Assembly (NCBI GenBank): GCA_017795025.1
Contig: CP051243.1
Location: 2,316,897 to 2,380,896, forward strand
Length of the DNA: 64,000 bases
DNA from: Flavobacteriales bacterium
GTDB lineage: Bacteria; Bacteroidota; Bacteroidia; Flavobacteriales; Schleiferiaceae
Direction of reading: 5' to 3'
The notes beneath the pieces are model-generated. The model was not told the origin of the DNA and made no database searches. It saw nothing but the letters and a program-made list of their open reading frames with translations. The stretch's first letter is position 1, and each line of letters opens with the position of its first letter. Shown here in pieces: positions 13,946-44,700 of this stretch. The translations under genes were made by a program, and so were the position numbers.

Positions 13946-13982
13946 AAGCCGTTTGATGAAAATCAGGCGGCTTTCTTTTTTT
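13946..13982 (+). terminator. Intrinsic terminator
   Basis: AAGCCGTTTGAT / ATCAGGCGGCTT stem plus T-rich tail; it overlaps the called start of the next ORF, which suggests a later true start. Confidence 0.75.
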
Positions 13983-14018
13983 GAACCTAGGGCAATCGCT
14001 TACCTTAGTGCAATGCAC

Positions 14019-15074
14019 ATGTCTCGCAAAAAGCCCAACTTTCCGGTCCACGATGAACTACGGACCTACCTTAAGAAATACCGCCGGGATGGTCAGTTGG
14101 CCGCCACCTATGAGGCCTTACAGCAGTTTAGCAATTCGGTGCCAATTCTCGACCAAAACGGAAAGGACACCCTTTGGCAGAGTGTGATTTACGATAATTT
14201 CCTGCAAGATGAAGTCCAAAAAGCCTTGGTGGAAATTTACGCGGCCTTAAAAACCGATGGCGATAAAAGCTTCATGGGTCAGCTGCGCACCGACCGTATC
14301 GATCACTGTTTATTTGGCAATTCCAATCCTTTTCGAATTCGGATTGTGAATACGGTAAATGATAATCACGATTACTACTACATTAAAAAAGCTGATGCTT
14401 CCCGAATTTACGGTTTGGAGCTCGAGCATTTACTGAGCCCCAATCGCATTGGTTATTTGGTAGATGGCGATACCTTGGTGGAAGAACATATTGCAGGCAT
14501 CCCCGGCGATGTTTTCTTAGGGCATTATATGGACCGCCCCAGTTTTGCCAAAACCCGAATGGCCAAGGAATTTGTGAAATTCAACGAACGCTGCTTTACG
14601 ATGTTATTAGGTGATATGCGCTCCTATAATTATGTAGTGGATGTTACGCCCGACTTCGACATGGAGCAATACCGGGTGCGCCCCATCGACTTCGATCAAC
14701 TCACTTATGAAGGTCGGAAAAACCACTACCTCCCTCAGTTTTACAAAGAAAACTTTGAGGTCATTCAGTTTTGCATGGACATCCTTTCGCCCGAAAATGT
14801 GGATCAATATCAAACCGAGGAGCGCACCTTAATCCGCAAGCGCTATGCCCTGGCTAAGGACCAAATTGAAGAGTTGCTAGATTCCATGTCGGCCGTACCC
14901 CTTTCCACCCCCGAAAAAATCGCTTCCCTTGCCAAGGACCTCAATACCTTTCACCGGAGCAAAGCTTTTACAAAGCGCAAAACCATGGGCGGCATCTTGC
15001 GCTTGCATCTCCAAAAAATGATGGAACGCACGGAAGGGAGGCGTTATTTGGGGAGGACGTCGTTTAAGGCCTAA
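14019..15074 (+). CDS. Conserved hypothetical protein with atypical protein/lipid kinase-like motifs
   Basis: YYIKK (ATP lysine), ELEHLL, EEHIAG hinge, LLGDMRSYN (DxxxxN) and IDFDQ (DFG-like). Start moved from 13953 to ATG 14019 because of the upstream terminator. Confidence 0.55.
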   Translation: MSRKKPNFPVHDELRTYLKKYRRDGQLAATYEALQQFSNSVPILDQNGKDTLWQSVIYDNFLQDEVQKALVEIYAALKTDGDKSFMGQLRTDRIDHCLFGNSNPFRIRIVNTVNDNHDYYYIKKADASRIYGLELEHLLSPNRIGYLVDGDTLVEEHIAGIPGDVFLGHYMDRPSFAKTRMAKEFVKFNERCFTMLLGDMRSYNYVVDVTPDFDMEQYRVRPIDFDQLTYEGRKNHYLPQFYKENFEVIQFCMDILSPENVDQYQTEERTLIRKRYALAKDQIEELLDSMSAVPLSTPEKIASLAKDLNTFHRSKAFTKRKTMGGILRLHLQKMMERTEGRRYLGRTSFKA

Positions 15075-15093
15075 GGCTGCGCCTTAGGCGGTA

Positions 15094-16424
15094 GTGAGAT
15101 TTGAGATTTGAGATCGGTCGCGGGGCTCCCTGTTAGACTTTATCATTCTTTAGTACTGCTACTTTACTTCCAAAGGATAACCTCTTGTTGCGGAGACCGT
15201 CCCCTTTGCGGGGCGAAGGGGTGGATTCCGACGTAGGTCAGAAAGCGGGGTAGGATAGCCTTTCAGAATCGAAAAATAACCTAGCTTTTCGAATTTGGCG
15301 ACCTGATTATAATCTCCCTAACTTCTCCTTCCTTTCATTTTTGCTTGATCAACCGAGAGCTTTGCTCGAGCTCACGGATTCCATTGAAAATTAAGGTGAC
15401 ATCCGTAACTACCCGCCGCCGCTAAAGCTATGGCGAATTAATCCCGCCGACGTTAAAGCTATGGCAAATACTACCCGCCGCCGCTAAAGCTATGGCGGGC
15501 GAAGAAATCAAGGCTTGGAAGCTCCGCCTCAAAAATGTTTGTAGTCTCCTGCTTCGGTGCACGAGTTAGATTGCTTTTTTGGTAAGCTAATATTGTTCTC
15601 TTTAACAGTTCTTTTCTTTCATTTTTTCTTGATAAACCGAGAGCTCTGCTCGAGCTCACGGATACCATTGAAAATTAAAGCGACATCCGTAAAAACGAAA
15701 CATCCGCCAGAGGCGGACAAGAATAATCAAGGGCCCTGAAAGGCAATTTCGCGAAGCAGCCTGCGGTATGCTCCGCAAACCGCCGACTCTTGGGCTGGGC
15801 CAGCACGATTAAACATTTTACTTGATTCGGACATCATCTCCTGTGGCTTTATCGAGTCCTCCATACTGCCCTGCGAGCGGGCTATTGTCCTCCAGAGGCG
15901 GACAAGCTCCTCAGGTCCCATTCTCCTCCGAACAAGAACGGCCTGCTTGATAGAGTTTTCCCCTACAGTAGTGCGAAAACAGCGTTTTAAGTTCCAAATT
16001 CACCTATGGAAGCATCCGGCCTTTCCCCGGTGATCGTAAGGACCTGAGCAGCTTGTCCGCCTCTGGAGGAAAATTGCGTCCGCCTCGGGCGGAAGAAGCA
16101 TGGAGCGATTAGGGCCGAACAGTTTTGCCGATTGAAGTGAGGCGAAAATCACCTAGGGAAAGGCCTAGCCTTTTCCGCCTGCCAGAGCTTTAGCGGCGGA
16201 CAGGTTGGATACTTTTTACAAACGTATCTGTTATTTATAAGGTGTTTGTGAGCTCGGCCAAGGCCTTCGGTTTGGCAATGAAAAAAGTATCGTAAAAACT
16301 CAGCTAGTCGCCTACTTCCATTTTTTCGTCTACCCTTCCTAGGCCGAATACCTCCTCACAGCGTTTTAAACTTAAATGAAAACCTTTGGAATTCTAGTTC
16401 ATCTATCGTGTAACGTCCAATTAC
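15094..16424 (+). repeat. Composite palindromic repeat, copy A
   Basis: Module order GTGAGATTTGAGATTTGAGATCGGTCGCGG - REP - TTTCATTTTT(T)CTTGAT - CCGAGAGCTCTGCTCGAGCTCACGG - (CGCTAAAGCTATGGCG)n ... AACCTTTGGAATTCTAG is colinear with 18.3-19.65 kb. Confidence 0.9.
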
Positions 16425-16474
16425 CAGTCAACCAGTCAACCAATCAACCAATCCACTAATTTCCCAGCCACCAA

Positions 16475-17197
16475 TCAACCATTCCCCCACTCTACATCCC
16501 GCTTTTTAAACCTCCGGGCCCAAATAATCATGCCGGGTACATATAAATTATAAGCCATGCCCGCCAGGATGGCTGCTAAGGCCAGGGAGTAGTTTTTAAG
16601 CACGGCGCTGGTGAGCACCGAAATTAGGGGAACCGAAAACATGATGGCTAAACGCCAAAGCTGCTGCCGCGTAAACCAAACTTCATAATCCGTGAACCCC
16701 AGTTTTTCGTGAATCCTATAGGCCCGCCAATGCAAGAGAAAAAGTAAAATGTAAAGACCCGTAACAATGAGGCCATAGTAAATCATTAAATCGGGGACCT
16801 GCTCGGCACTGAGGCCCAGCTGCACATGACTGCCAAAAAAGAAATTGGTTAAGAAAATAGTGAGGAAGCGCAGGGGGTACACGTAAAAGATGACCAGACC
16901 AATAAACAAGGTGTTGAGAATAATCAACCAAGTATCGCCAAAGCCATACAACCGCGAAAAATTAAAATGCTCCTTCCAGATTAAAACAATAAAGGAGATG
17001 CTTAAAAGAAAGGCTGGCAAGGTTTGGGTAAAGCGAAGCAGGGTTTCGAAGGAATCGGGATTCTCCAAGTTGAAAATGAGGAGGGTAATAGCGATTCCAA
17101 ACACTGCATCGGTCAAATTATCGATTCGGGAGGCTTCCAAACCTCGGTACTGCAATCGATCATCCAATTTAGAGGGGTTTACTTTTCCGCGTATCAT
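16475..17197 (-). CDS. TMEM175-family (DUF1211) potassium channel-like membrane protein
   Basis: SRIDNLTDAVFGIAITLL matches the RxxxFSDxVFAIAxTLL signature; about 6 hydrophobic segments. Confidence 0.8.
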   Translation of the reverse strand: MIRGKVNPSKLDDRLQYRGLEASRIDNLTDAVFGIAITLLIFNLENPDSFETLLRFTQTLPAFLLSISFIVLIWKEHFNFSRLYGFGDTWLIILNTLFIGLVIFYVYPLRFLTIFLTNFFFGSHVQLGLSAEQVPDLMIYYGLIVTGLYILLFLLHWRAYRIHEKLGFTDYEVWFTRQQLWRLAIMFSVPLISVLTSAVLKNYSLALAAILAGMAYNLYVPGMIIWARRFKKRDVEWGNG

Positions 17198-18210
17198 TTC
17201 ATCTTACTTAAAACTTGCACCCCTTCCCGCTGCTTTAAACTTAAGGTCCCTTGGTCCCGGTTTAGGATTAAATGGATATCGGCGGTGGGAAAATACAAGG
17301 TGCTGTCATTTTGGGGGTAAACTTCAAAACTTGGCTGACCAATCGCGGCGAAGCGCAGGGAATTTCCTTCCAAACGAAGGCGAAAATCTTGCAGGCCGCG
17401 TAAGGTGTAACGACCGGTATCGGCTGTCCATTGGGGGGCCTTAAAAGGAATAAGGTAACCTACATAATCGGCATAGGGGTCGCCCTCTGGTTCCAGGCGC
17501 TTGGAAATCTCAATCAAGTTACGCACGGTTTTCATGCGGGCCATGCGCAAGGTGGCGTACATATTATTGATGGCATAGGTGCGGTAAATCTCGACCGAAT
17601 TTCGATAGTAGGGGCTTTCGGCCATATATAGAACCGCCTCTTCAGGGAGTCGCCCTCTGGCAATTTGATAAAACCATTCCTTTTCCTCCGCCCAAGCTTC
17701 GAGACGATGGATCACGTAATCCTCCAAGCGCTCCTGCATGCTCTCAATCGCCGCATAATCTTCTCCATAAAGTTCCTCCAAATCACTGTACAGGGTATCA
17801 TAGCCCTGCGAAAAATAGTCTCCGTGCCGGTTCATATTCTGCAAGCCATTGCGCTGGACTTGCACTCGAGCATAGGTCATGATGAGCCCCGCATAATTAA
17901 AATCCCGACGGTAGTCCTCCGCCCGAACCGAATCCATCATGATGCGTCGGATAAGGGAGTCTTTTTGGTTAAGCAGATAGGCCACCCCTTTCATCTCCTG
18001 CAGGTTGGCCCGTAAATCGCGGCGCACCTCGGCAAGAATAGCCAGGGCCTTTTCGTCATTCTTAGCTTGCTCGTTCCGATTATTGATTTCGAGGGCAATG
18101 AGAATACCAGCCACCACTAAAACCATCTCTAAAACCACATACACCAAGTAGCCACCAAAGCCCTTAGTTTGAAAGAATTGAAAACGTCCCTTACGAAATA
18201 GTTTAGCCAT
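17194..18210 (-). CDS. DUF6090-family membrane-anchored protein
   Basis: N-terminal YLVYVVLEMVLVVAGILIALEINNRNE is the typical family signature; overlaps the next gene by 4 bp. Confidence 0.7.
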   Translation of the reverse strand: MAKLFRKGRFQFFQTKGFGGYLVYVVLEMVLVVAGILIALEINNRNEQAKNDEKALAILAEVRRDLRANLQEMKGVAYLLNQKDSLIRRIMMDSVRAEDYRRDFNYAGLIMTYARVQVQRNGLQNMNRHGDYFSQGYDTLYSDLEELYGEDYAAIESMQERLEDYVIHRLEAWAEEKEWFYQIARGRLPEEAVLYMAESPYYRNSVEIYRTYAINNMYATLRMARMKTVRNLIEISKRLEPEGDPYADYVGYLIPFKAPQWTADTGRYTLRGLQDFRLRLEGNSLRFAAIGQPSFEVYPQNDSTLYFPTADIHLILNRDQGTLSLKQREGVQVLSKMK

Positions 18211-18319
18211 GAGGGGAAGATAGTGAATTGGAGGATTGGGGGAGAGGGTATTGGTGGATTGGTGGATTGGGAAATTGTAGACTGGGAAATTGGTGGATTG
18301 GAAAAATGGTGTTTGGGTT

Positions 18320-19651
18320 TTCGCCTGCGGCGAACTTAGACCGGTCGCGAGCCTGCGGCAGAACCTAGACCAGTCGCGAGCCTGCGGCAGAAGTGAGATT
18401 TGAGATTTGAGATCGGTCGCGGTGCTCCCTGTGAGACTATATTATCCTTGGTACTATTACCTTTCTTTCAAGGGAAAAGCCAATGTTGCGAAGACCGTCG
18501 CCTTCAAGGGTTTATGGACTGTGAAACGGGGTAGTTGCCATGTTAAAAACAATCTGGTTTTTCGAATATGGTAACCTGATTATGAAATTGAAAATAGATC
18601 GGGCGTTCGTAACCGAGAGCTCTGCTCGAGCTCACGGATTCCAATGAAAATTAAAGCGACATCCGTAACAACGAAATTCGCCGGCGCTAAAGCTATGGCT
18701 AATACAATCCGCCTTCGCTAAAGCTATGGCGAATTAAACCTACCGCGGCTATGGCTATTGCAAATACTACCCGCCGCCGCTAAAGCTATGGCGGGCGAGG
18801 AAATCAAGGCTTGGAAGCTTCGCCTCTAAAATGCTTGTAGCCTCCTGCTTCGGTGCACGAGTTAGATTGCTTTTTTGGTAAGCTAATATTGTTCTCTTTA
18901 ACAGTTCTTTTCTTTCATTTTTTCTTGATAAACCGAGAGCTCTGCTCGAGCTCACGGATACCATTGAAAATTAAAGCGACATCCGTAAAAACGAAACATC
19001 CGTGCCCGCCATAACTGGCTGTGGCAGGCGGGAAAATCAAGGGCCCTGAAAGGCAATTTCACGAAGCAGCCTGCGGCATGCTCCGCAAACCGCCGACTCG
19101 TGGGCTGGGCCAACACGATGAAGCATTTTTCTGGATTGAAATATTTTCTCCAGTGGCCTTATTGAGTCCTGAATGCTGCCCTACGAGCGGACTATTGTCC
19201 TCCAAAGGCGGACAGGCTCCTCAGGCCCCATTCTCCTCCGAATAAGAATTGCATACAGGAAACGAATATCCCCCTTTTTGCAATCTTTAAAGATGGTCTT
19301 AGGTTCCAAAACTTACCTATGGAAGCATTCGGCCTTTCCCCAGTGATCGAGAGGACCTGAGCAGCTTGTCCGCCTCTGGAGGACAATTGCGTCCGCCTTG
19401 GGCGGAAGAAGCATGGAGCGATTAGGGCCGAATAGTTTTGCCGACTAAAAAGAGGCAAAAATCACCTAGGGAAAGGCCTAGCCTTTTTGGATACTTTTTT
19501 GGCAATGAAAAAAGTATCGTAAAAACTCAGCTAGTCGCCTACTTCCATTTTCTTGGCTACCCTTCCTAGGCCGGATACCACCTCACATGATATCAGATTC
19601 AAAAGAATGATTTTAGTAATACAGTACATTTCTCGTGTATCGTCCAATTAC
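18320..19651 (+). repeat. Composite palindromic repeat, copy B
   Basis: Same module order as copy A; 18764-18990 is nearly identical to 15468-15695; preceded by a tandem 29-bp unit AGACC(G/A)GTCGCGAGCCTGCGGCAGAA. Confidence 0.9.
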
Positions 19652-19703
19652 AAGTAAACCAATCTACCGATTCACCAATCCACCAAACATTTACTCCGGA
19701 TGA

Positions 19704-19888
19704 CCATCCCCTTCATGCGGCGAAGGGGTGGATTGCGACGCAAGTCGGAGGACGGTGTAGGGTTAACTTCCCAGTTTAGAAAAATTAAATGAGGATTGGG
19801 TTAAGATATCTTTCCCAGCCTTTAACGAACACTAGTGGGGACTACCCCGTTTCACAACCCACAAACCCTTGAAGGGGACGTCCCCCTA
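19704..19888 (-). repeat. Inverted REP doublet (REPIN-like), homologous to 43173-43387
   Basis: The reverse complement aligns by eye with 43173-43387, including the AT-rich spacer (GGCT(G/A)GGAAAGA(T/C)ATCTTAA(C/T)CCAATCCT...GGGAAGTTAA). Confidence 0.8.
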
Positions 19889-19938
19889 AGCTGATTTCGT
19901 AAGTCAAAAGGAAGTCTAAGAATCTATATCTTTGATTT

Positions 19939-20247
19939 ATGTTGGATTTATTTCAAGATAAGCGCGTCGAATTAGAGTCAATTTTTGCTGCCCATAAGGT
20001 AAAGCGCGCCGAAATCTTCGGCTCTGCAACAACTGATGCCTTTAGCGAGCGCAGCGACATCGACCTATTAATCACTTTTAAGGAGGATATCGCACTATTA
20101 GACTATGCTGATAATTACTTTCTTCTTAAGGAGAAACTTGAAAAACTATTAGATCGTAATATCGATCTCGTGTCTGCAAAGTCTCTAAGAAACCCTGTGC
20201 TTATTGAAAGCATTAATAAATCCAAAGTGAGCTTGTATGCAGCCTAG
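19939..20247 (+). CDS. Minimal nucleotidyltransferase (MNT/MntA-type antitoxin)
   Basis: IFGSA...SDIDLLI (GS-x-DxD) and IDLVS...LRNP; TATCTTTG -7 element at 19927-19934. Confidence 0.9.
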   Translation: MLDLFQDKRVELESIFAAHKVKRAEIFGSATTDAFSERSDIDLLITFKEDIALLDYADNYFLLKEKLEKLLDRNIDLVSAKSLRNPVLIESINKSKVSLYAA

Positions 20248-20314
20248 GATCAATAAATACACTCTAGATATTAAAGGGTATATTCCTTCTGTAGGTGAAT
20301 CTAGCGCTTCCTAA
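20237..20314 (+). pseudogene. Truncated remnant of the HEPN (DUF86/HepT) toxin gene
   Basis: The ATG overlaps the MNT 3' end as in mnt-hepT operons; MQPRINKYTLDI resembles DUF86 N-termini, then a stop comes after 25 codons. Confidence 0.45.
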
Positions 20315-20404
20315 ACCTATACTCTCATAGGAATTGGCGAAACCTTGGCCTTAATTACTTAATAAAGCCATAATTGCCGGGAAAAAACTAGAAGGGTTAT
20401 CCCG

Positions 20405-20730
20405 TAAATTCTTAAAGCCTCTTGCTTCGGCACACAAGATAAATATCTTTTTTTGTCAGTTGTTATCGTTCTTTTTAAGGGTTCTTTCCTTTCATTTTTT
20501 CTTGATAAAAAACGAAACAAAAAATCAAGGCTTGGAAGCTTCGCCTCTAAAATCTTCGTAGTCTCCTGCTTCGGTGGGCGAGCTCCTGATGTCGCTTCCC
20601 ATCTCAGCTAGTCGTCTACTTCCATTTTTTCGTCTACCCTTCCTAGGCCGTATCACCTCCTCACAGAATTTTGGACTTAAATTGAAACCTTTGGAATTCT
20701 AGTGCATCTATCGTGTATCGTACAATAACA
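20405..20730 (+). repeat. Short, uninterrupted form of the composite repeat, copy C
   Basis: CTTGATAAAAAACGAAACAAAAAATCAAGGCTTGGAAGCTTCGCCTC...CTCAGCTAGTCG...AAACCTTTGGAATTCTAGTGCATCTATCGTG shares both ends with copies A and B but lacks the inserts. Confidence 0.85.
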
Positions 20731-20816
20731 AATCAACCAATCTACCGATACACTAATACACCAATCTACTAATCCACCAGCACCATGCAGCAATCCAGAA
20801 TTCCCTAAATTACACC

Positions 20817-22907
20817 ATGCGAAAAATACTCTGTCTTTTCCTACTCTCCATTAGCCTTCAAGCGCAACCCATTAATGCGATAATTGGTGACACCGCTTGG
20901 TATGTTAGTAACGACGAATGGCCCTCAATGCAAGAACCGGAGCAGGAGCGTCTTCGTAATCACCTGAGCTACGTCTTGGAACGCCTAAGGAGAAAGAACC
21001 CTTCCCCATCCAAGGCCCGAAGTCAAAATCTGCAGCATCTAGCGCAGTACATCGCTCGGCAGGAGTTCCCGCAAACCTTCCAACACCCGGATGCCCGTCG
21101 GCCATGTTTTATTGATGACGAGGGTCGTTTATGCGCCGTGGGCTACCTCATTGCGCAGAGTGCCGGTTTGGCGGAAGCGGAGCGCATCAATCAAAAATTT
21201 CGGTTTCATTACTTGCTGGATATGCAAGACTCGGCCCTCCTGGCTTGGCAGCAAAGTAGTGGCCTAAGTCTTCGCGAACTAGCAATGATTCAGCCCGCCT
21301 ATGGCTGGGAACGCATGGACCTCTTTTACGTCTACCAAAACCCACGTACCCAGAAGTATGGTTTAAAGAAAACTAAGAATAATCGCGTGGCCGTGCGAGC
21401 CCGTTACGACCTTTTTCGCTACGACCCATCCCTACCCTTTATGTTTGCCCGTAAAGGGGATGTTTGGCACATCTTTGATCAGGAAGCGGATCGGATTAAC
21501 TCCAAAGACTACGACACGGTAAGCTTTGTGCGTCATGGTACAAGCTACCGCCTAATTGCTGCCGATGGAGAAAGTATTGAAGCCTATAATGCCGCCGGGG
21601 AGCTGCTTTGGGAAGTAGAAGGCAAGATTCAATTGCTCAGCGTTTTTCGTCAAGATCAAATTAAGGTCGGCACCGAAAAAGGACGTGGGGCTCTTAATTC
21701 CCGGGGCGACTTCGTTATTCCCGCCATTTACGACAGCTTGATCGGGGTAGCCAACCTCGATTACCGCTTGGCGGCCTGGCAAGTACTGGGTATGAGTAAA
21801 CAACATAATCGCAAGAAATGGGGGATTATCGACACCGCCGGCAAGATGATTATAAAGCCCGCTTATGATAAAATCGAATACCGGCGCGGGGTCTATATCG
21901 CTCAAGATGGGCGCCATCGGGAAATCATCGACCATCAGGGCAACAGCGTTGTGGGCTGGGGCTTACAGAGCTTGCAAGATGGTTTATGTCGTTATTGCTT
22001 GATCATCGAAACTGAAAAGGGATTTGGTCACTTTAACGGAGCAGCCAGAGCTTGGGATCATGAGGGACTCTATACCGAAATGCGGGTGGAAGATCGCGAG
22101 TACTACCGTATTCGTACGAACAAGGGCTATGGTTTTATGAATGTGATTGGTCAGACCATTATTGCGCCGGAATATGAAGCCGTCCGCATTCAAAAGCAAT
22201 TCATCTTCGTTAAAAAGCAAGGCAAATGGGGCTTAAGAGGCTACCGGGGCGATAGTTTAATTCCCCCCATTTACGATACCATCGGGGTTTTGGCGGAAGA
22301 TCAAAATACCAGTAAGCCTTCAACATTACTCTTTGCCCGGCAGGGGTCCAAGTTTAAAGTATTCGCGCCTAATGGCCTGGACATCAGTGCCCAGTACCAA
22401 TGGGAAGACTTTGAAAGAATCAGTCCCAATATCATTCAGCTTATTAAGGGCGACCGTAAGGTGCTGGCCCAGTATCATCAAGGGCAGCTGGTTTACCATC
22501 AGTTTATTGAAATCGATTACGCCCGACCCTTGGGTTCCTGGAAAATGGCCTACGGTATAAATGGTAAAGAAGGCATTTGGAATCTCGCCTACGGACAGGC
22601 ACTGCAAAAACATCATTTTAGAGCCGCTCAATTTGACACCATCGCCCCCGCCGAAAGTCAGTATCACGATAAGTATCTGGTGCAAAAAGACGGGAAATGG
22701 GGCATTTACAGTTACAAAGCTGACTCCCTGGAAATCCCTTGTGAGCATGAGGCCTATTTCCCTAAAGACCGGAATACCCACTCTGGTTGGATTTACTTCC
22801 GTAAGGATGGGATTTGGCAGGGCTATTTTTATACCGTACCCAAGCTCCAAGCTGTTATGCCCCGCACCCAGGCTAAGATGGATGAGTGGTGGGCGGAGGA
22901 GAAATGA
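20817..22907 (+). CDS. Secreted WG-repeat protein with an uncharacterised N-terminal domain
   Basis: Signal peptide; repeated KWG(I/L)ID...IIxPxYD units; N-terminal RPCFIDDEGRLCAVGYLI domain. Confidence 0.75.
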   Translation: MRKILCLFLLSISLQAQPINAIIGDTAWYVSNDEWPSMQEPEQERLRNHLSYVLERLRRKNPSPSKARSQNLQHLAQYIARQEFPQTFQHPDARRPCFIDDEGRLCAVGYLIAQSAGLAEAERINQKFRFHYLLDMQDSALLAWQQSSGLSLRELAMIQPAYGWERMDLFYVYQNPRTQKYGLKKTKNNRVAVRARYDLFRYDPSLPFMFARKGDVWHIFDQEADRINSKDYDTVSFVRHGTSYRLIAADGESIEAYNAAGELLWEVEGKIQLLSVFRQDQIKVGTEKGRGALNSRGDFVIPAIYDSLIGVANLDYRLAAWQVLGMSKQHNRKKWGIIDTAGKMIIKPAYDKIEYRRGVYIAQDGRHREIIDHQGNSVVGWGLQSLQDGLCRYCLIIETEKGFGHFNGAARAWDHEGLYTEMRVEDREYYRIRTNKGYGFMNVIGQTIIAPEYEAVRIQKQFIFVKKQGKWGLRGYRGDSLIPPIYDTIGVLAEDQNTSKPSTLLFARQGSKFKVFAPNGLDISAQYQWEDFERISPNIIQLIKGDRKVLAQYHQGQLVYHQFIEIDYARPLGSWKMAYGINGKEGIWNLAYGQALQKHHFRAAQFDTIAPAESQYHDKYLVQKDGKWGIYSYKADSLEIPCEHEAYFPKDRNTHSGWIYFRKDGIWQGYFYTVPKLQAVMPRTQAKMDEWWAEEK

Positions 22908-22909
22908 AG

Positions 22910-23455
22910 TGCCTGCGGCTTCGCCTTCGGCAGAAGTGAGATTTGAGATTTGAGATCGGTCGCGGGGCTCCCTGTGAGACTCTATTATCCTTGGTACTAT
23001 TATCCTTCTTTCAATGGATAATATCATGTTGCGGAGACAGTCCCCTTCGCGGGGCGAAGGGGTGGTTTGGCCTTCAAGGCCAAAGCGGGGTAGTTTTAAC
23101 ATGTTAAATTCGAAGAACAATGTTATCGTTCGAATTTGGTAACCTGATTTCTGACTCCTCAACAACTCTTTCCTTTCATTTTTTCTTGATAAAAAACGAA
23201 ACAAAAAATCAATTGAGCTGGAAGGCAATTACTCTAAGGCTCGATGCCTTAGAGTACCACAGAGTCTCAGGCCAGACCAGCCTGAGGAAATTCTTGATTT
23301 AAGTTGTTTTATCTCGACCTCTTAAGAGTTAGGTTCTTGATACTGCCTTTCGACCTGTTATTGCTGCCCAGCTCAAGGGTCCTCCGAACTTAGCATTCTG
23401 TATTCAGATGAAAACCTTTGGAAATCTAGTGCATCTATCGTGTATTGTTCAATTA
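22910..23455 (+). repeat. Composite palindromic repeat, copy D
   Basis: Starts GCCTGCGGC...AGAAGTGAGATTTGAGATTTGAGATCGGTCGC, contains a REP and CTTGATAAAAAACGAAACAAAAAATCAA, ends AAAACCTTTGGAAATCTAGTGCATCTATCGTG. Confidence 0.85.
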
Positions 23456-23475
23456 CTGGTTAACCATTCAACTAA

Positions 23476-23524
23476 TTCACCAATCCACCAATCCACCAAT
23501 TCACCAATCCACCAATTCACCAAT
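23476..23524 (+). repeat. Octamer tandem repeat (CACCAAT[C/T])n
   Basis: About six consecutive copies; degenerate versions at ~16425-16470, 18250-18305, 19660-19690, 20735-20780, 24165-24210 and 43040-43075. Confidence 0.85.
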
Positions 23525-23527
23525 GCC

Positions 23528-23551
23528 AAAAAAAAGAGGCCCTCAGGCCTC
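23528..23551 (-). terminator. Intrinsic terminator for the SRPBCC gene
   Basis: GAGGCC/GGCCTC stem with an 8-A run on the + strand (U-tract on -). Confidence 0.7.
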
Positions 23552-23574
23552 TCTCAATTAAATATGTACAGGAA

Positions 23575-24111
23575 CTACTTCTCCACGATGTCTTTCAACA
23601 TCCCCAAGCCCTCTTGGAAGGAAGGACCCATGGCCTCTTCGGCGGTCATGAAGAGGTTGATGAGGTTCATCGGGTAATCGAATTCGCTTTCCATACGCCA
23701 GGTCACCTTGGTGCCCGAACCGGATTCTTCCAATTTAATAATGGCCATTCCGGTTGATTCCTGCGGACGGCTAAAATCCAATCGGGTTTCTAGCAAGTAA
23801 GGTGCGCCTACTTTGGTAATGGTTTGACAACCGGCCCCTACTTCGGGGTGCTGACTGTCCCAACAATTTTTAGCGCCCACCGTTCCGGGAGCCCCTTCAA
23901 AGGTTTGCTCCAATTCAGGATCCTTCTTGGTCCAAGGACTCCAGGCGTCCATTTTCTTTAGAGTATTGGTTTCATTCCATACCTGCGTAACCGGCGCATT
24001 AATCACCAAGCTCTCTTCGTGCGAGAAATCTTTGTCTACAAACAAGGCAGTAACCAATGGAATACCAATCAGAATCACCAGAATGATAAGGATAATTTTT
24101 AGTGCTTTCAT
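23575..24111 (-). CDS. SRPBCC (polyketide cyclase/START-like) family protein
   Basis: N-terminal TM, INAP..QVW, W.PW...DP, G.VGA...W, GTKVTW. Confidence 0.85.
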   Translation of the reverse strand: MKALKIILIILVILIGIPLVTALFVDKDFSHEESLVINAPVTQVWNETNTLKKMDAWSPWTKKDPELEQTFEGAPGTVGAKNCWDSQHPEVGAGCQTITKVGAPYLLETRLDFSRPQESTGMAIIKLEESGSGTKVTWRMESEFDYPMNLINLFMTAEEAMGPSFQEGLGMLKDIVEK

Positions 24112-24283
24112 GTTTTAGAAATTAGTTGATGAGGAAAGCAATTTAGGGAATTTTTGGATTGGGGGATTGGTGGTTTGGGAAAATGGAAATTGGTGGAGTG
24201 GTGGAGTGGTGAGGTTACAGGAACCTAAGCAAGCAATAGTCAAGAAAAGAATATCCTTGTTATATTTGAGGAAAGCCCCCTGA

Positions 24284-26154: not shown

Positions 26155-26159
26155 AATAC

Positions 26160-41200: not shown

Positions 41201-43033
41201 ATGGCCATTTTTGTGAGTACCGATTGCGGAGCCACCTACAGCCGCGTGGCCAGCTATACTTCGGATGCGGGTAGTAACTTCGCCACCGTTTCGGATCAAA
41301 CTTCCCAATTTAGCCCCAGCGTAAGTAGCGAATGGTGTGGAAATACCCTTATCCCCAACTGTCCCAGTATCGACCTCAGCGCCTATGCCGGTCAGGCGGA
41401 GGTAATCATTAAATGGGAGGCCATTAATGGCTATGGCAATAATCTGTATATCGATAATATTAACATCAGTGGGGTGCAAAATACCACCACTCCTATTGCC
41501 GATTTCAGTGTTGACTCGGCCAGTATTTGCGTAGGGGGTACGGTTAACCTCAGCGATCAAACGGCTAATACGCCCACAGCCTGGAGCTGGAGCATCAGTC
41601 CCAACACTTATAGCTTTGTAGGCGGTACTTCGGCCAGCAGTCAGAACCCCCAGATACAGTTTAATGCCGCGGGTAACTACCAAGTAAGTTTAACCGCCAC
41701 CAACGGTTTTGGAAATGATACTAAAACCGTCGCCAATTTCATTAGTGTGAATGCCTTGGCCAGTCCATCGGTAAGCATAAGTGGTAATGCAAACTCCTGG
41801 TGTAGTGGTCAAACCGCCAGCTTCAGCGCTTCGCCCAGCAATGGCGGATCGAGCCCCAGCTACCAATGGAAGGTAAATGGTGTAAATGCAGGAAGCAATA
41901 GCGCCAACTTTAGCAGCAGCACTTTGAACAATGGAGATGTGGTGACTGTGGAAATGACCGGCAATGCCTATTGCAGCTCTAGCGGCAGCGTAAGCAGTAA
42001 TAGCATTACTGTTCTGATAACGCCCCTAGTGGTACCCACGGTAAACATTAGCAGTAGTAGCACCAGCCTTTGTGCTGGCAGCAATGTGAGCTTTAGCGCC
42101 ACGGTTAGCAATGCCGGTAACAACCCGGTGTACCAGTGGAAAGTGAACGGAACGAATGTGGGCAGCAACAGCAGCAATTTCAGCAGCACGGGATTGGCGA
42201 ATAATGATCAGGTAAGCTTAGAAGTTACCGGCTCCGGTGCTTGCGCGAGTCCTGTGGCCGGAGTCTCCAATACCCTAAGCATGAACGTGCGTCCTTTGCC
42301 CGTCATTACGGTCCCCTCACCTCCTTTCGCTCCCCTTTGTCCGGGCGATAGTTTAGTCCTCACCGCTACCGTAAATAATCACGGTATTCCCGGAATTTTA
42401 ACCAATTGGAGCGGACCTGGGGTGCAGAACAATGTGTTTTATGCCGACTTGGCCGGACCGGGTAACCACACCCTAAGCGTGGGCTATCTCTACGCCAGCA
42501 GTCCGGATTGCCCGGTAAATGAAAGTCTGCAAATAAGCGTACAAAATTTCCCCAGCCCTAGCATTAGTCGCAATGGCTTAACGCTTACCTGTAATCCGGG
42601 GGGCTATAATTACTTATGGTTATTAAATGGTAGTCCCGCCCCGGGAACTAATAATCAGCAGAGCTATAGCTTAACCGTTAATGGCAGCTATACCGTGGAG
42701 ATGTCGGGCGCCAACTGTGTTTTAGAATCCGATCCTGAGGATGTGATTGATATGAGCCAGGAAGATCTAAGGGCGACCTACGTTTGGCAGGTTTACCCCA
42801 ACCCTAGTCGGGAGCAGGTTTACTTCAGTTTACGAAATCCTGGTGCTTCGAGCATCGAAATCCGTTTGCTCGACAGTCGTGGTGCCCTGATGCGCAGCGA
42901 AACCCGGCAGGTTAATGGCTCCGAGATAAAAGAAAGCCTGCCCCTGCAAGGCTTAGCCGAAGGCGTTTATCAGCTGCAAGTTATTGTGGGTGAGCTGCGC
43001 TTCCAGGAGGCGATTCGGAAGATTGGGAGTTAG
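38282..43033 (+). CDS. T9SS-secreted multidomain protein: Asp-box (BNR/VPS10-like) propeller, PKD and Ig-like domains, type A CTD
   Basis: WVERGPDNVGGRTRAL; six or more SxDxGxTW Asp-boxes; two PKD-like repeats (WSISP..); YQWKVNG Ig repeats; VYPNP...GVYQL CTD. Confidence 0.9.
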   Translation: MRKYLIFAGLILLGLDIAPNLSPRDQYALFLKNHPFNNRPRLSPEQWKQVPKEDRPDLAWEQNFLATMDPALGRPVPERLQAVYQIVDQQQNMPLPGIPGSAGHPWVERGPDNVGGRTRALMWDPNASSGNKVWAGGVTGGLWYNNNITSANSAWVSVSNQWDNIAITAIAYDPNNTQTFYVGTGEGWGTGASRGAGIWKSTDGGATWTQLANTTGYHYVNDLVVRDENGTSAVYAACRENFFRGTWHGVNGLFRSVNGGSSWTQVMPNAPGSSQPYAVADLEIAADNRIWVGTQQNSQLDGGGRVMYSDNGTTWTVSRTIAGGERVEVAVAPSNSFVVYALTESQGQAHEIARSTNKGSSWLVRNEPNDADLGIPATDFTRGQAWYDLILQVDPNNQNTIIAGGIDLFRSTDGAGTWSQISKWSNNNNLANLSCSYVHADQHQVQFKPGSSSTVIFGTDGGVFYTSSLATAATSNVISARNQDYNVTQFYAAALHPTAGSNYALAGAQDNGTQQFTAAGFGSTNRVTGGDGAYCFIDQTNPNYQITSYVYNYYWRSTNGGSFFSNTPIQSDFNTGRFINPADYDDQQNILYSTRNASTVNRISNVTGSPSVGSISISGMNSWASHLRVSPYTTSSTTLFVGTEAGDLFKVTNANASPSSTNISGSSFPNAHLSCVELGADEDEIIVTFSNYGVTSVWFTDDGGSTWQNKEGNLPDMPVRWVLFNPNDRNQVILATEVGVWSTSNFNSSSPNWVPSNSGLSRVRVDMLQIRDSDDEVIAATHGRGLFSSDAFNAPPLPIADFYPLPEVACLNQTITLSDSSTGGPTTWNWSISPNTFSFVNGTSASSQHPEIQLSAAGSYDITLVVSNANGSDTLTKIGALRGGGLPLPFTEDFEGSTSFTVDNPDNGITWSLYSIGGTSPGNTAAGIDFFNYNATGERDGLISPLLDFSNYTSVDLDFDYAYARYSSSYRDSMAIFVSTDCGATYSRVASYTSDAGSNFATVSDQTSQFSPSVSSEWCGNTLIPNCPSIDLSAYAGQAEVIIKWEAINGYGNNLYIDNINISGVQNTTTPIADFSVDSASICVGGTVNLSDQTANTPTAWSWSISPNTYSFVGGTSASSQNPQIQFNAAGNYQVSLTATNGFGNDTKTVANFISVNALASPSVSISGNANSWCSGQTASFSASPSNGGSSPSYQWKVNGVNAGSNSANFSSSTLNNGDVVTVEMTGNAYCSSSGSVSSNSITVLITPLVVPTVNISSSSTSLCAGSNVSFSATVSNAGNNPVYQWKVNGTNVGSNSSNFSSTGLANNDQVSLEVTGSGACASPVAGVSNTLSMNVRPLPVITVPSPPFAPLCPGDSLVLTATVNNHGIPGILTNWSGPGVQNNVFYADLAGPGNHTLSVGYLYASSPDCPVNESLQISVQNFPSPSISRNGLTLTCNPGGYNYLWLLNGSPAPGTNNQQSYSLTVNGSYTVEMSGANCVLESDPEDVIDMSQEDLRATYVWQVYPNPSREQVYFSLRNPGASSIEIRLLDSRGALMRSETRQVNGSEIKESLPLQGLAEGVYQLQVIVGELRFQEAIRKIGS

Positions 43034-43172
43034 GGGTTTGGTGTTTGGTGATAGGTGGATTGTTGGATTGGGTTTTGTGGGATTGCTTCAATGTGATGTT
43101 TGCTTCAACGCAGGGAACGCAGAGAATATAGAGTTTCGCAGAGGCTGTTCCTTTTGAGCACAATATCAGCTA

Positions 43173-43387
43173 TAGGAGACCTCCCCTTCAAGGGTTGAAG
43201 GGGTGGCGCAGCCGGGGTAGTTGCTTCTCTAGTTCCTTAAGGCTAGGAAAGACATCTTAATCCAATCCTTATTTATTTTCTCGAAACAGGGAAGTTAAGC
43301 CTACCCCGTATTACAACCCGTAATGCAATGAAGGGACTGGCTTCCGACATCCATCGCAATTCACCCCTTCGCCCCGCGAAGGAAAGG
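43173..43387 (+). repeat. Inverted REP doublet (REPIN-like)
   Basis: CCCCTTCAAGGG...CGGGGTAG and CTACCCCG...CACCCCTTCGCCCCGCGAAGG flank a spacer shared with 19704-19888. Confidence 0.8.
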
Positions 43388-43467
43388 TGTAAGTCCCTCT
43401 AAAAATCCAAGAAAATAAAAGTGTGTAACTTTAGACTGTTGACCATATCCAATATAGCTTAGATCCG

Positions 43468-44204: not shown

Positions 44205-44700
44205 AGTCTGGCCAGAGACTCTGTTGTACTCTAAGGTGCCAAGCCTTAGAGTAATTGCCTTTTACCTCAATTGATTATTCTCGCCCGCCAAAGCTCTAGC
44301 GGCGGCATTAATTCGCCATAGCTTTAGCGAAGGCGAATTTCGTTGTTACCAACGCCCTATCTATTTTCAATTGAGTTCGTGAGCTCGAGCAAAGCTCTCG
44401 GTTGATCAAAGAAAAATGAAAGACAATAAATGTTGAGGAGCCTTTAATCAGGTTACCATATTCGAAAAACCAGGTTGTATTTCATATTTGAAAAGTTAAC
44501 CCTACCCCACTTTCCGACCTACATCGGAAACCACCCCTTCGCCCGCGAAGGGGACGATCTCCGCAACAGAAGTTTTTCTATTGGAAGAGAATAGGTACTA
44601 CTAGAGAGCATATAGTCTAACAGGGAGCTTACGACCGCTCTCAAATCTCAGATCTCACTTCTGCCGCAGGCTCGCGACTGGTCTGGGGCGAGCCTACAGC
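44205..44700 (-). repeat. Composite palindromic repeat, copy E (inverted)
   Basis: The reverse complement reads AGACCAGTCGCGAGCCTGCGGCAGAAGTGAGATCTGAGATTTGAG...REP...CCGAGAGCTTTGCTCGAGCTCACG...CGCTAAAGCTATGGCG...GGCAATTACTCTAAGGCT, matching copies A, B and D. Confidence 0.9.

What the first reader, a model, noticed from the sequence alone, without database searches (positions are those of the whole stretch)
15094..23455. Family of nested, modular non-coding elements (Russian-doll REP/MITE mosaics)
Five related elements (A 15094-16424, B 18320-19651, C 20405-20730, D 22910-23455, E 44205-44700 inverted) share module order and even AT-rich spacers, so they spread as units rather than as scattered REPs. 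Copies C and D show the empty site CTTGATAAAAAACGAAACAAAAAATCAA. In A, B and E the same site is opened by inserts: a ~55-bp CCGAGAGCT(C/T)TGCTCGAGCTCACG unit (5 copies; 4 with an ACGGAT/ATCCGT hairpin), CGCTAAAGCTATGGCG arrays, and TCCGCCAGAGGCGGA-type hairpins. No transposase is encoded in the window, so mobilisation would be in trans, for example by an HUH/RAYT-type enzyme (inference). The elements occupy several kb of this region.
Basis: partly seen in the sequence, partly recalled or inferred. Interest (0 to 1): 0.7.

Follow-up and report, generated by a model that had tools for sequence, protein, structure and literature searches.

The report
Nested hairpin repeat mosaics between genes
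Several gaps between genes in this uncultured marine Bacteroidota genome are filled by a genome-wide family of non-coding, hairpin-forming repeat modules that sit inside each other's loops and differ between near-identical strains; it is a new, unusually well-resolved example of REP/BIME/MITE-type repeat DNA, not a new kind of system.

Summary
About 5 kb (8%) of the window is this material, all of it intergenic.

It is not a local duplication. In metagenomes holding a close strain, module depth is 10-60 times single-copy depth, and it differs by module. Modules also occur in a relative whose orthologous protein is only 55% identical.

Contigs of a close strain (genes 97.5-99% identical) show an empty host hairpin where the window carries about 370 nt. 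They also show 3 versus 1 tandem copies of a 56-nt unit, 31-nt units at different sites, and interior modules swapped between loci A and B.

The 56-nt unit has two hairpins kept by compensatory changes. All one-sided changes are G·U on one strand. It has no terminal inverted repeats and always joins its flank at TT|AC, and its flanks rebuild the empty sites exactly.

Best reading: several families of non-autonomous hairpin units insert next to the loops of AT-rich hairpins, and recombination between copies shuffles the composites. An HUH/RAYT-type mobiliser fits the anatomy but is unproven; no transposase was found.

The parts
15068..15089 (+). GC hairpin GGCCTAAGGC-TGC-GCCTTAGGC overlapping the stop codon of gene 13953-15074; first piece of element A (R-type hairpin)
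   Evidence: read from sequence; R-type units form a 29-nt tandem array at 18323-18392
15094..15352 (+). Head module of A: TGAGATT x2.9, conserved spacer, P palindrome (15195-15254, CCCCTTYGCGGGGCGAAGGGG...GGGGTAG), left arm of host hairpin 1
   Evidence: depth about 10-14x (head start) and about 36x (P) of single copy in run X1
15351..15408 (-). 56-nt two-hairpin unit U, copy A1, inside the loop of host hairpin 1
   Evidence: 82.2 bits
15410..15497 (+). Array of 31-nt G units (stem CCCGCC/GGCGGG, loop GCCGCTAAAGCTATG), 2.8 copies
15502..15636 (+). M3-M2 module: right arm of host hairpin 1 (ATCAAGG), spacer, left arm of host hairpin 2 (TTTCATTTTTTCTTGAT)
   Evidence: 14-27x depth
15635..15692 (-). 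Unit U, copy A2, in host hairpin 2; followed by short hairpin TCCGCC-AGA-GGCGGA (15703-15717)
15722..16174 (+). Interior module I: long imperfect foldback; core inverted repeat 15881-15918 / 16040-16077 (38 nt, 92% complementary)
   Evidence: z-scores -5.6 and -6.6; variants swapped between loci A and B in the close strain
16174..16204 (-). Single 31-nt G unit; absent at the same place in L002 and in element B (precise 31-nt indel)
   Evidence: alignment A2
16216..16272 (+). Unit U in opposite orientation, inserted at the T-run/loop junction of the tail hairpin GATACTTTTT|..|TTGGCAATGAAAAAAGTATC; element B has the empty hairpin
   Evidence: 64.7 bits
16271..16515 (+). Tail module of A (16271-16427) and G-less ACCAATCA/ACCAATCC tract (16428-16515)
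18208..18323 (-). G-less CCAATCCACC tract ending at the ATG of gene 17194-18210
18323..19697 (+). Element B: R array (18323-18392), head (18393-18612), truncated U then U B1 (18611-18668, -), G array (18679-18792), M3-M2 (18800-18932), U B2 (18931-18988, -), interior (19035-19487), tail (19498-19654), tract (19655-19697)
19697..19913 (+). Element F: two P-type palindromic units in inverted orientation around a 75-nt spacer (REPIN-like layout)
   Evidence: D13; 19752-19913 matches 43309-43148; 18496-18535 matches 19880-19841
20406..20786 (+). Element C: M2, EMPTY host hairpin (20483-20530), M3, tail (20603-20729), tract (20721-20786) ending 30 nt before the ATG of gene 20817
22908..23535 (+). 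Element D: R hairpin after the stop codon, head (22936-23193), EMPTY host hairpin (23167-23212), D-type interior (23204-23400), tail 3' part (23408-23456), tract (23459-23535)
24110..24223 (-). G-less CCACC/CCAAT tract ending at the ATG of gene 23575-24111
43012..43388 (-). G-less tract (43012-43088) and a second inverted pair of P-type units (43148-43388)
44206..44700 (-). Element E (inverted): D-type interior piece (44206-44279), G units (44283-44335), unit U (44346-44403, folding strand is +), head (44402-44658), R hairpins next to the stop codon of gene 44706-45797
   Evidence: 74.5 bits

Best explanation
These are lineage-specific interspersed mosaic repeats. Several families of small, non-coding, hairpin-forming units accumulate in intergenic regions as nested, modular composites: R about 29 nt, P about 60 nt, U 56 nt, G 31 nt, AT-rich 'host' hairpins, a roughly 450-nt foldback, and a tail with a G-less tract.

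Shown: the units are multi-copy and dispersed, and they are conserved across species. They differ between near-identical strains by whole-unit steps. U keeps two hairpins through compensatory changes on one strand.

Inferred mechanism, part 1: the small units U and G are non-autonomous elements. They insert as single-stranded DNA at the A/T run next to the loop of an AT-rich hairpin, without terminal inverted repeats or a target duplication. An enzyme encoded elsewhere in the genome moves them, most plausibly a Y1/HUH transposase of the IS200/IS605-RAYT type. U always joins its left flank at TT|AC and itself ends in GGTT. Each inserted copy therefore recreates the target, which would explain head-to-tail arrays.

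Inferred mechanism, part 2: homologous recombination or gene conversion between the dispersed copies then shuffles modules and produces the 'Russian-doll' mosaics.

A host-level role (3'-end hairpins after stop codons, portable upstream tracts) is possible but untested.
For: Dispersal.
- In run X1 the single-copy genes have depth about 420-470, while modules reach 3,700-28,000. That is about 9-10x for the tail 3' part, about 25x for the host hairpin, 19-27x for U, about 36x for P and 40-65x for the tail 5' part.
- Contigs break at element edges and continue into many different flanks.

Other species.
- Host hairpin, U and part of the interior occur in JGI contigs of a relative whose DUF6090 protein is 55% identical. 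Modules there are 77-100% identical, while the adjacent orthologous genes are 66-73% identical at DNA level.
- A Cryomorphaceae MAG carries the U right half, 24 of 24 nt.
- A 51%-identical relative has a 6-bp intergenic gap at the A site and no modules in the 21 kb sampled.

Strain polymorphism in whole-unit steps, with flanking genes 97.5-99.0% identical.
- The host hairpin is empty in L002 where the window has about 370 nt.
- A 56-nt array of 2.7 copies is in L002, against one plus a truncated copy in window B.
- A 31-nt G unit at 16174-16204 is absent in L002, and a 66-nt double G insertion is present only in L002.

Anatomy of U.
- On 18 distinct copies, 97.8% of cells are paired and 5 of 10 pairs show compensatory change. 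Slid controls give 22-51%.
- All five one-sided changes are G·U on one strand.
- GTGAGCTC and TCGGTT, which lie outside the two stems, are invariant.
- There are no terminal inverted repeats.
- If U is defined as AC...TCGGTT, the flanks rebuild the empty sites exactly. GTTTCGTTTTT|U|TATCAAG equals the C/D empty site. GGATACTTTTT|U|TGGCAATG equals the B tail. This holds in two different host hairpins and in both orientations.

Recombination.
- Interior centres are swapped between loci. Window A matches L002 locus B at 92.4% and window B matches L002 locus A at 95.2%, but the orthologous pairs match at only 75-80%.
- The L002 A head is 89% identical to the window D head and 81% to the window A head.
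Against: - No transposase, RAYT or integrase gene was seen. The search covered the 38 Pfam-scanned window ORFs and ten ORFs next to modules in three loci of the relative. The mobilising enzyme is therefore pure inference.
- A 2-nt (TT/AA) target duplication cannot be excluded. Array copy-number changes could come from slippage or unequal crossing-over alone.
- U occurs in both orientations within 1 kb, so no strand bias is visible.
- The P palindrome has its GTAG 20-30 nt from the stem and facing inward in inverted pairs, unlike canonical RAYT substrates.
- The strain comparisons rest on metagenome contigs (L002, L003) that could be mis-joined across repeats.
- Depth-based copy numbers may include related species in the same samples.
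- No RNA data exist, so an RNA-level function is not excluded.
Confidence: 0.55

Rival explanations
1. The modules are functional cis-acting or RNA elements: 3'-UTR hairpins that terminate or stabilise upstream mRNAs, portable promoter/5'-leader cassettes (tail plus G-less tract), or small structured RNAs. Selection keeps them, and recombination rather than transposition spreads them.
For: - Heads begin with a GC hairpin at or within about 30 nt of the stop codon of a co-oriented gene in A, D and E.
- Three of the seven G-less tracts end at, or 30 nt before, a start codon on the same strand.
- U hairpins covary, with G·U only on one strand.
- Modules are more conserved between species than neighbouring genes.
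- The interior folds far better than shuffles.
- A G-type hairpin followed by a T run looks like a terminator on the minus strand at 15719-15701.
- Precedents: Neisseria REP2, which carries a promoter (PMC3184786), and BrickBuilt, which has promoter activity (PMC4596501).
Against: - No Rfam family matches, even at E up to 1.
- Promoter-like and terminator-like sites are not enriched over shuffles.
- A and D lie between convergent genes, so their tails face gene 3' ends.
- U occurs in both orientations inside one element.
- Unit number and presence differ between strains whose genes are 97.5-99% identical. That is unexpected for a tuned regulator.
- A candidate 6-codon mini-ORF next to the host hairpin is not conserved in the relative.
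- No RNA run holds the region.
Confidence: 0.2
2. No transposition takes place. The pattern is satellite-like DNA that expands and contracts by replication slippage and unequal crossing-over, and moves between loci only by gene conversion among homologous host modules.
For: - Head-to-tail arrays have variable copy number: U 56 nt, G 31 nt, R 29 nt, tract 8 nt.
- Module variants are swapped or exchanged between loci.
- A coordinated 19-20-nt difference on both arms of the interior inverted repeat in L003 fits template switching within a palindrome.
Against: - Single U and G units sit in otherwise empty sites of at least two different host sequences: the host hairpin loop and the tail hairpin for U, and two different A/T runs for G. 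The junction geometry is the same in each case, so at least some de novo insertion is needed.
- The same unit occurs at unrelated loci in another species.
- Stem covariation with invariant sequence between the stems suggests recognition by a protein.
Confidence: 0.15
3. They are classical MITEs: deletion derivatives of a DDE-transposase insertion sequence with terminal inverted repeats and target-site duplications, nested by repeated insertion.
For: - They are short, non-coding, multi-copy and intergenic, with insertion polymorphism.
- The interior module is a long foldback like many MITEs.
- A 2-nt TT/AA duplication at U insertions cannot be excluded.
Against: - The ends of U (ACGGAT... / ...TCGGTT), of G and of the whole composites (TGAGATT repeats against the ACCAATCC tract) are not inverted repeats.
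- No insertion sequence with matching ends was found in the window, related loci, plasmids, phages or viral contigs.
- No empty site is available to define the ends or a duplication for the interior foldback.
Confidence: 0.08
4. It is a purely local segmental duplication confined to this region.
For: Four of the five elements lie within 9 kb and in the same orientation.
Against: - Module depth is 10-60x single copy.
- At least four long contigs (3-35 kb) end in the tail module of C, and there are many different loose ends.
- Copies exist in other contigs and other species.
Confidence: 0.02

Closest known systems
REP sequences, BIMEs and REPINs with RAYT transposases (E. coli, Pseudomonas, Stenotrophomonas; PMC3733652, PMC3116915)
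   Same: Both are short GC-rich imperfect palindromes in high copy, extragenic and often just after stop codons or between convergent genes. Both cluster into mosaics with fixed intervening motifs and occur as inverted pairs (F and 43148-43388 here). Both differ between strains, and no transposase lies inside the repeat.
   Different: There is no sequence relation. The GTAG here lies 20-30 nt from the palindrome and faces inward in pairs, whereas it abuts the stem foot and faces outward in REPINs. The composites are much larger (0.4-1.4 kb) and include AT-rich hairpins, a 450-nt foldback and G-less tracts. No RAYT gene has been found. PMC3733652 reports GTAG repeats in phyla such as Proteobacteria and Cyanobacteria, and lists Bacteroidetes only among the phyla with CGTC repeats.
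IS200/IS605-family elements and their transposase-less derivatives (PATEs); 'peel-and-paste' single-strand transposition (my own knowledge of the family)
   Same: Unit U has hairpins at both ends rather than inverted repeats. It has no demonstrable target duplication and a constant short sequence 5' of the left end (TT|AC). Folding constraints are strand-specific (G·U on one strand only), and conserved bases lie between the stems.
   Different: U is only 56 nt. Its own 3' end mimics the target, and it forms head-to-tail arrays. Insertion is tied to the T-run/loop junction of a host hairpin. No TnpA or TnpB has been seen, and cleavage sites are inferred only.
Neisserial intergenic mosaic elements (NIMEs: RS units flanked by dRS3) and Correia elements (PMC3184786, PMC3733652)
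   Same: Both are large intergenic arrays built from several interleaved repeat families. They are thought to drive recombination, and they border variable genes.
   Different: The organisms and sequences are different. NIMEs are defined by 20-bp dRS3 repeats, which are absent here. The nesting inside hairpin loops is not a described NIME feature.
BrickBuilt of Porphyromonas gingivalis (PMC4596501)
   Same: Both come from the same phylum. Both are intergenic composites of a 'leader', an internal tandem repeat and a 'tail', up to about 1 kb long, in tens of copies with leader or tail variably present, and they differ between strains.
   Different: BrickBuilt has small inverted-repeat ends and a 23-nt minisatellite. 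Here there are several unit families (56, 31 and 29 nt) placed in hairpin loops, and no inverted ends. Sequence similarity was not tested because the paper text held here gives no sequence.
BOX elements of Streptococcus pneumoniae (boxA-boxB(n)-boxC) (PMC3184786)
   Same: Both have a modular order with a variable number of middle units, high copy number and an intergenic location.
   Different: BOX elements are unrelated in sequence and much smaller, and they are not nested.
Insertion sequences that target REP hairpins (IS1397/ISKpn1 into REP loops, from my own knowledge; the IS110-family member ISPpu9 into REPs, PMC12288879)
   Same: Both show that the loop or centre of a repeated palindrome can be a specific integration target.
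   Different: Those are full insertion sequences that carry their own transposase. Here the inserts are 31-56-nt non-coding units.

Membership tests
MITE (TIR-type, DDE-mobilised) | Terminal inverted repeats | tested here: not met
   The ends of U, of G and of the whole composites are not inverted repeats. Only the interior module is a foldback.
MITE (TIR-type, DDE-mobilised) | Target-site duplication flanking each copy | tested here: inconclusive
   Filled versus empty sites differ by 56 nt (U) or 31 nt (G) within A/T runs. A 2-nt TT/AA duplication and no duplication fit equally well.
MITE (TIR-type, DDE-mobilised) | Small, non-coding, multi-copy | tested here: met
   No conserved ORFs; module depth 10-60x single copy.
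MITE (TIR-type, DDE-mobilised) | A parent insertion sequence with the same ends | not testable with these tools
   None in the window, related loci, plasmids, phages or viral contigs. The whole genome was not available, and the source species was not found in the genome collection.
REP / REPIN (RAYT-associated) | 20-40-nt GC-rich imperfect palindrome, extragenic, high copy | tested here: met
   The P (CCCCTTC/GAAGGGG), G (CCCGCC/GGCGGG) and R hairpins; P is about 36x single copy.
REP / REPIN (RAYT-associated) | GTAG (or CGTC) tetranucleotide directly at one end of the palindrome | tested here: not met
   GGGGTAG lies 20-30 nt 3' of the P stem and faces the spacer in the inverted pairs. G and R units carry no such tag.
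REP / REPIN (RAYT-associated) | Inverted doublets forming a larger hairpin | tested here: met
   F (19697-19913) and 43148-43388 each hold two P units in inverted orientation.
REP / REPIN (RAYT-associated) | A RAYT gene flanked by the same REPs in the genome | not testable with these tools
   No Y1_Tnp-type domain among the ORFs scanned; the rest of the genome is unavailable.
IS200/IS605-derived non-autonomous element (PATE) | Hairpins at both ends, with no terminal inverted repeats | tested here: met
   Two hairpins supported by covariation: 97.8% of cells paired and 5 of 10 pairs compensatory.
IS200/IS605-derived non-autonomous element (PATE) | Insertion 3' of a fixed short target, with no duplication | tested here: inconclusive
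   The left junction is TT|AC in all 18 distinct copies aligned, and the flanks rebuild the empty sites. A TT duplication is not excluded.
IS200/IS605-derived non-autonomous element (PATE) | Strand-specific single-strand substrate | tested here: inconclusive
   All 5 one-sided stem changes are G·U/G·T on one strand. That is too few events, and an RNA would give the same signal.
IS200/IS605-derived non-autonomous element (PATE) | A cognate TnpA (Y1 HUH) with matching ends | not testable with these tools
   None was seen in about 250 kb of related sequence, of which ORFs were Pfam-scanned only in the window and in three loci of the relative; no genome-wide search was possible.
Integron attC sites | R''/R' boxes (RYYYAAC ... 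GTTRRRY) flanking an imperfect palindrome next to cassettes | tested here: not met
   Read by eye, the junctions GTTGATC, GTTTATC, GTTACGG and GTTGCGG do not fit GTTRRRY, and no RYYYAAC partner is present. No integrase was found.
Known structured RNA family (Rfam 15) | Score at or above a family's gathering threshold | tested here: not met
   No match in the whole window. At E up to 1, only two chance-level hits inside genes.

The most novel reading that the evidence does not exclude
The 56-nt and 31-nt units are substrates of an undescribed mobilisation system in Bacteroidota that targets hairpin loops. In this reading an enzyme recognises the T-run/loop junction of AT-rich hairpins on one DNA strand and cuts at TT|AC. 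It pastes minimal two-hairpin units whose own 3' end regenerates the target, so arrays build themselves. Alternatively, the units are protein-binding RNA modules that are added to and removed from larger transcripts.
Probability: 0.2. Interest if true: 0.7.

Novelty: new variant of a known kind. Interest (0 to 1): 0.48.

Why it matters
These repeats make up about 8% of this window. They break short-read assemblies at every copy, and they sit at the borders of strain-variable genes (MNT, a WG-repeat protein, a defence island). They are therefore likely hot spots of rearrangement in an abundant but uncultured marine Bacteroidota lineage.

The empty and filled sites are clean, the differences come in whole units, and the hairpins covary. 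This gives an unusually well-defined substrate for asking how minimal hairpin repeats spread. That question is still open for most REP-like families, and especially so outside Proteobacteria.

If a cognate enzyme is found, the TT|AC junction and the self-regenerating target make directly testable predictions.

Tried and rejected
- Rfam: a gathering-threshold scan of the whole window and a permissive scan of 15000-24300 found nothing relevant.
- BLAST of element A against plasmids and phages found no match. Viral-contig scans with the U pattern and the host-hairpin pattern found no match.
- The genome-collection scan with the U 24-mer gave only one hit, in a Cryomorphaceae MAG.
- The metagenome scan gave 15 loci, of which 6 are chance hits in GC-rich coding DNA of unrelated organisms.
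- Exact-protein look-ups of window proteins were not on record.
- No RNA-seq runs hold the region.
- A conserved 6-codon mini-ORF (MK-G/E/D-K/R/N-...) next to the host hairpin was rejected because it is not conserved in the relative.
- Integron attC sites were rejected because the R boxes do not fit and there is no integrase.
- Canonical GTAG REPs were rejected because the position and polarity of GTAG are wrong.
- The sigma-70 promoter and intrinsic-terminator scan showed no enrichment over shuffles. Bacteroidota promoters are not covered by that tool.
- A truncated HepT toxin gene after the MNT gene got no tblastn support.
- The apical stem of U hairpin 1 is present in the relative's copies (TCCATT/AATGGA, TCCTTT/AAAGGA) but decayed in the window's copies. 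It was left out of the covariation test because the alignment register differs.

Full report
**Setting.** The window comes from a Bacteroidota genome. It encodes type IX secretion components and cargo (PorP/SprF, Por_Secre_tail, CHU_C) and a TonB-dependent receptor. Public runs that hold near-identical sequence are aquaculture, lagoon and seawater metagenomes. The source genome was not found in the collections: exact protein look-ups failed, and a genome-collection scan with the 24-mer hit only one contig, from a Cryomorphaceae MAG.

- Self-BLAST, direct-repeat families and a MAFFT alignment show the following. A (15081-16460), B (18380-19687), C (20406-20765), D (22911-23522) and inverted E (44206-44687) share modules in the same order at 75-90% identity.
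- The 46-nt 'empty site' is identical in C and D.
- The 24-mer of the ~55-nt unit occurs 5 times against 0 expected. CGCTAAAGCTATGGCG-like words occur 10 times against 0.6 expected.
- Tandem Repeats Finder resolves the arrays: 31-nt units at 15410-15497 and 18679-18792, a 29-nt unit at 18323-18392, TGAGATT x2.9 at the start of the A, B and D heads, and 8-nt ACCAATCC tracts after every tail.
- All elements are intergenic.
- Further pieces belong to the system: F (19697-19913) and 43148-43388, each an inverted pair of a ~60-nt palindromic unit that also sits in the heads; seven G-less tracts; and a sixth copy of the unit inside A's tail.
- Together they cover about 5.1 kb, or 8% of the window.

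**Not a local duplication.**
- Logan contigs of runs X1, X2 and X5 were laid on the region. Genes have a flat depth (about 420-470 in X1), contigs stop at every element edge, and depth over the elements is several-fold higher.
- At fine scale in X1, the tail 3' part is about 9-10x single copy, the host hairpin about 25x and the tail 5' part (20604-20651) 40-65x. The head start is 10-14x, the P palindrome about 36x and unit U 19-27x.
- Four contigs of 3-35 kb end in C's tail, and many different loose ends follow the modules.
- Modules therefore occur at tens of loci, and with different copy numbers.
- Caveat: depths are sums over contigs and may include related species in the same samples.

**Related genomes.**
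- The DUF6090 protein (17194-18210) has a 99% identical homologue on JGI contigs L002 and L003. It also has 55% and 51% identical homologues on L004/L005 and on L007, which lies on a 3.4-Mb contig.
- L007 keeps the local gene order for TMEM175 through the 373-aa, 677-aa and VWA genes. It has 6 bp between TMEM175 and the next gene, where the window has the 1.4-kb element A, and it shows no modules in 21 kb.
- The 55% relative does carry host hairpins, U units and part of the interior, at several unrelated loci. Identity there is 77-100%, while the adjacent orthologous genes are 66-73% identical at DNA level.
- A covariance model of U also finds a copy in the Cryomorphaceae MAG.

**Differences between near-identical strains.** Genes flanking A are 97.5-99.0% identical between the window and L002. 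The element itself differs by whole units (alignment A2).
1. L002 has the empty loop CTTGATCAAAAAGAAACAAAAAATCAAGG. The window has U, three G units, the M3-M2 module, a second U and a short hairpin there, about 370 nt in all.
2. A 31-nt G unit at 16174-16204 is absent in L002 and in B.
3. L002 has a 66-nt double G insertion at GAGGCAA|AAATCACC that the window lacks.
4. L003 carries an extra tail copy.
5. L003 lacks 19-20 nt on both arms of the 38-nt inverted repeat of the interior.

In element B, L002 and L003 have a 56-nt array of 2.7 copies, where the window has one copy preceded by a truncated one. A lagoon contig shows an empty loop in the M2-interior context (joint 15636 to 15725).

Module variants are also exchanged between loci.
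- The centre of the interior at window A matches L002's B locus at 92.4%, and window B matches L002's A locus at 95.2%. The orthologous pairs match at only 75-80%.
- L002's A head is closer to the window's D head (89%) than to the window's A head (81%).
- One route to such a swap is excision of the tail-genes-head segment by recombination between the two direct interior copies, followed by reintegration in another register. Gene conversion is another route. Both are inference.
- L002 and L003 are metagenome contigs and could be mis-joined across repeats. They agree with each other, and X1/X2 contigs reproduce L002's tail/TMEM175 junction. I could not lay reads on L002.

**Anatomy of the 56-nt unit U.** Read on its folding strand, U runs as follows: TT | ACGGAT - about 21 nt - ATCCGT | GAGCTC | GAGC-AGA-GCTC | TCGG TT. 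The folding strand is the window's minus strand for A1, A2, B1 and B2, and the plus strand for E and for the tail copy.
- Eighteen distinct copies from two species align with invariant GTGAGCTC and TCGGTT.
- Both stems covary. Stem 1 reads ACGGAT/ATCCGT, ACGAAC/GTTCGT or ACAAAC/GTTTGT. Stem 2 reads GAGC/GCTC, AGGC/GCCT or GGGT/GCCC.
- Of all cells, 97.8% are paired and 5 of 10 pairs show changes on both sides. Partners slid by 1-3 columns give 22-51%.
- All five one-sided changes are G·U on this strand, so they would be A·C mismatches on the other strand.
- There are no terminal inverted repeats.
- With U taken as AC...TCGGTT, the flanks GTTTCGTTTTT + TATCAAG reproduce the empty site of C and D. 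The flanks GGATACTTTTT + TGGCAATG reproduce B's empty tail hairpin.
- In both hosts U sits at the 3' end of a T run, immediately before the loop of a T-run/loop/A-run hairpin.
- Because U ends in GGTT and the left junction is always TT|AC, a copy offers the same junction to the next copy. That would produce head-to-tail arrays (inference).

**Other units.**
- G units keep a 14-15-nt loop (GCCGCTAAAGCTATG) while the stem varies: CCCGCC/GGCGGG, TCCGCC/GGCGGA or TTCGCC/GGCGAA.
- The host hairpin also covaries between species: CTTGAT/ATCAAG against CTTGACC/GGTCAAG.
- The interior is a long foldback, with z-scores of -5.6 and -6.6 on the two strands.

**Mechanism.**
- Shown: the units are multi-copy, dispersed and conserved. 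They vary between strains in whole-unit steps, their hairpins are maintained by compensatory change, and modules are exchanged between loci.
- Inferred: the small units are non-autonomous elements handled as single-stranded hairpin DNA by a trans-acting enzyme. The hairpin ends without inverted repeats, the fixed 5' flank and the lack of a required duplication resemble IS200/IS605-RAYT substrates (my own knowledge of that family; PMC3733652 for REP/RAYT). The strand-specific wobble points the same way.
- No such gene was found in the 38 Pfam-scanned window ORFs, nor in ten ORFs next to modules in three loci of the relative.
- The one GTAG-bearing palindrome (P) is not built like a canonical GTAG REP.
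- I put about 0.35 on an HUH-type enzyme specifically. I put 0.55 on the overall picture of mobile hairpin units plus recombination.

**Rivals.**
- Functional RNA or cis-regulatory modules (0.2). In favour: hairpins at stop codons, G-less tracts ending at start codons, and covariation. Against: no Rfam match, no enrichment of promoter-like or terminator-like sites, mixed orientations, and copy-number variation between strains.
- Slippage and conversion without transposition (0.15). This explains the arrays and the swaps. It does not explain single units in different host sequences that share the same junction geometry.
- Classical TIR-type MITEs (0.08). The inverted-repeat criterion fails.
- Local duplication (0.02). 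Refuted.

**Comparison with known systems.**
- It works like E. coli BIMEs, Neisseria NIMEs, pneumococcal BOX elements and, within the same phylum, P. gingivalis BrickBuilt, which has a leader, a tandem repeat and a tail (PMC3184786, PMC3733652, PMC4596501). Insertion into the loop of a repeated palindrome has precedents among full insertion sequences (PMC12288879).
- It is not a member of any of these. It has no shared sequence, no dRS3 and no inverted ends, and its GTAG is non-canonical.
- I class it as a new variant of a known kind. The distinctive points are the loop-in-loop nesting with clean empty sites, several unit families of fixed size, and a unit whose 3' end mimics its target.

Noticed in passing
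window 24284-32810: A low-GC (30-37%) defence island: an HNH+HIT fusion, DUF3800, GmrSD_N, HEPN RiboL-PSP, a 684-aa protein with no Pfam match, a C-5 cytosine methylase and EcoRII. It starts right after a G-less tract. It is absent from the strain in runs X1/X2 (depth 0 from 24252) and present in X5.
   Followed up: partly
window 16428-16515, 19655-19697, 20721-20786, 23459-23535 (+); 18208-18323, 24110-24223, 43012-43088 (-): Seven G-less tracts of 8-nt ACCAATCC-type repeats, always next to the repeat elements. Three of them end at, or 30 nt before, a start codon on the same strand, so they may serve as unstructured leaders; the other four face gene 3' ends.
   Followed up: partly
window 19939-20330: An orphan MNT-type nucleotidyltransferase (antitoxin-like) lies between B/F and C, with no HepT partner. 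An overlapping 25-codon ORF could be a toxin remnant, but tblastn with a relative's HepT found nothing. In the 55% relative an MNT-HepT pair is also flanked by the repeat modules (L004 15690-16311).
   Followed up: partly
L003 about 3640-3850, compared with window 15881-15918 / 16040-16077: L003 lacks 19-20 nt on both arms of the interior's 38-nt inverted repeat. The two differences are coordinated and keep the long helix intact.
   Followed up: no
L001 6035-6113 and 1001-1051 (Cryomorphaceae MAG CAVUKD010000002.1): The right half of unit U is identical over 24 nt, and a host-hairpin-like motif is 88% identical. Orthologous proteins of closer relatives are only about 55% identical. L001 also has its own 120-nt direct repeat at 5580-5700 / 5820-5940, with a CGGATG...CATCCG hairpin and CTTGATTTTCTATCAAG.
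   Followed up: partly
L007 9560-9900: The 51% relative lacks these modules in the 21 kb sampled. It has a different 2-3-copy repeat family upstream of its DUF6090 gene, with CCGCCCGCC...GGCGG hairpins and GGGTAGTTGATTACCC.
   Followed up: no
window 60749-61707: A toxin-antitoxin pair: an Xre/MbcA/ParS-type antitoxin followed by a RES-domain toxin.
   Followed up: no
window 43468-44016: A 182-aa ORF with no Pfam match, in an AT-rich stretch (38% GC), bracketed by the P inverted pair and element E. It looks like an acquired cassette.
   Followed up: no
window 40754-40854 / 41573-41673: A 101-nt direct repeat (77% identity) inside the 1583-aa PKD/sortilin-type secreted protein gene. It reflects coding-domain repeats and is unrelated to the intergenic elements.
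   Followed up: no
window 15701-15719 (-): The short hairpin TCCGCC-AGA-GGCGGA followed by TTTCGTTTTT reads as an intrinsic-terminator-like site on the minus strand. It is created by a GC hairpin sitting next to the host hairpin's T run.
   Followed up: no
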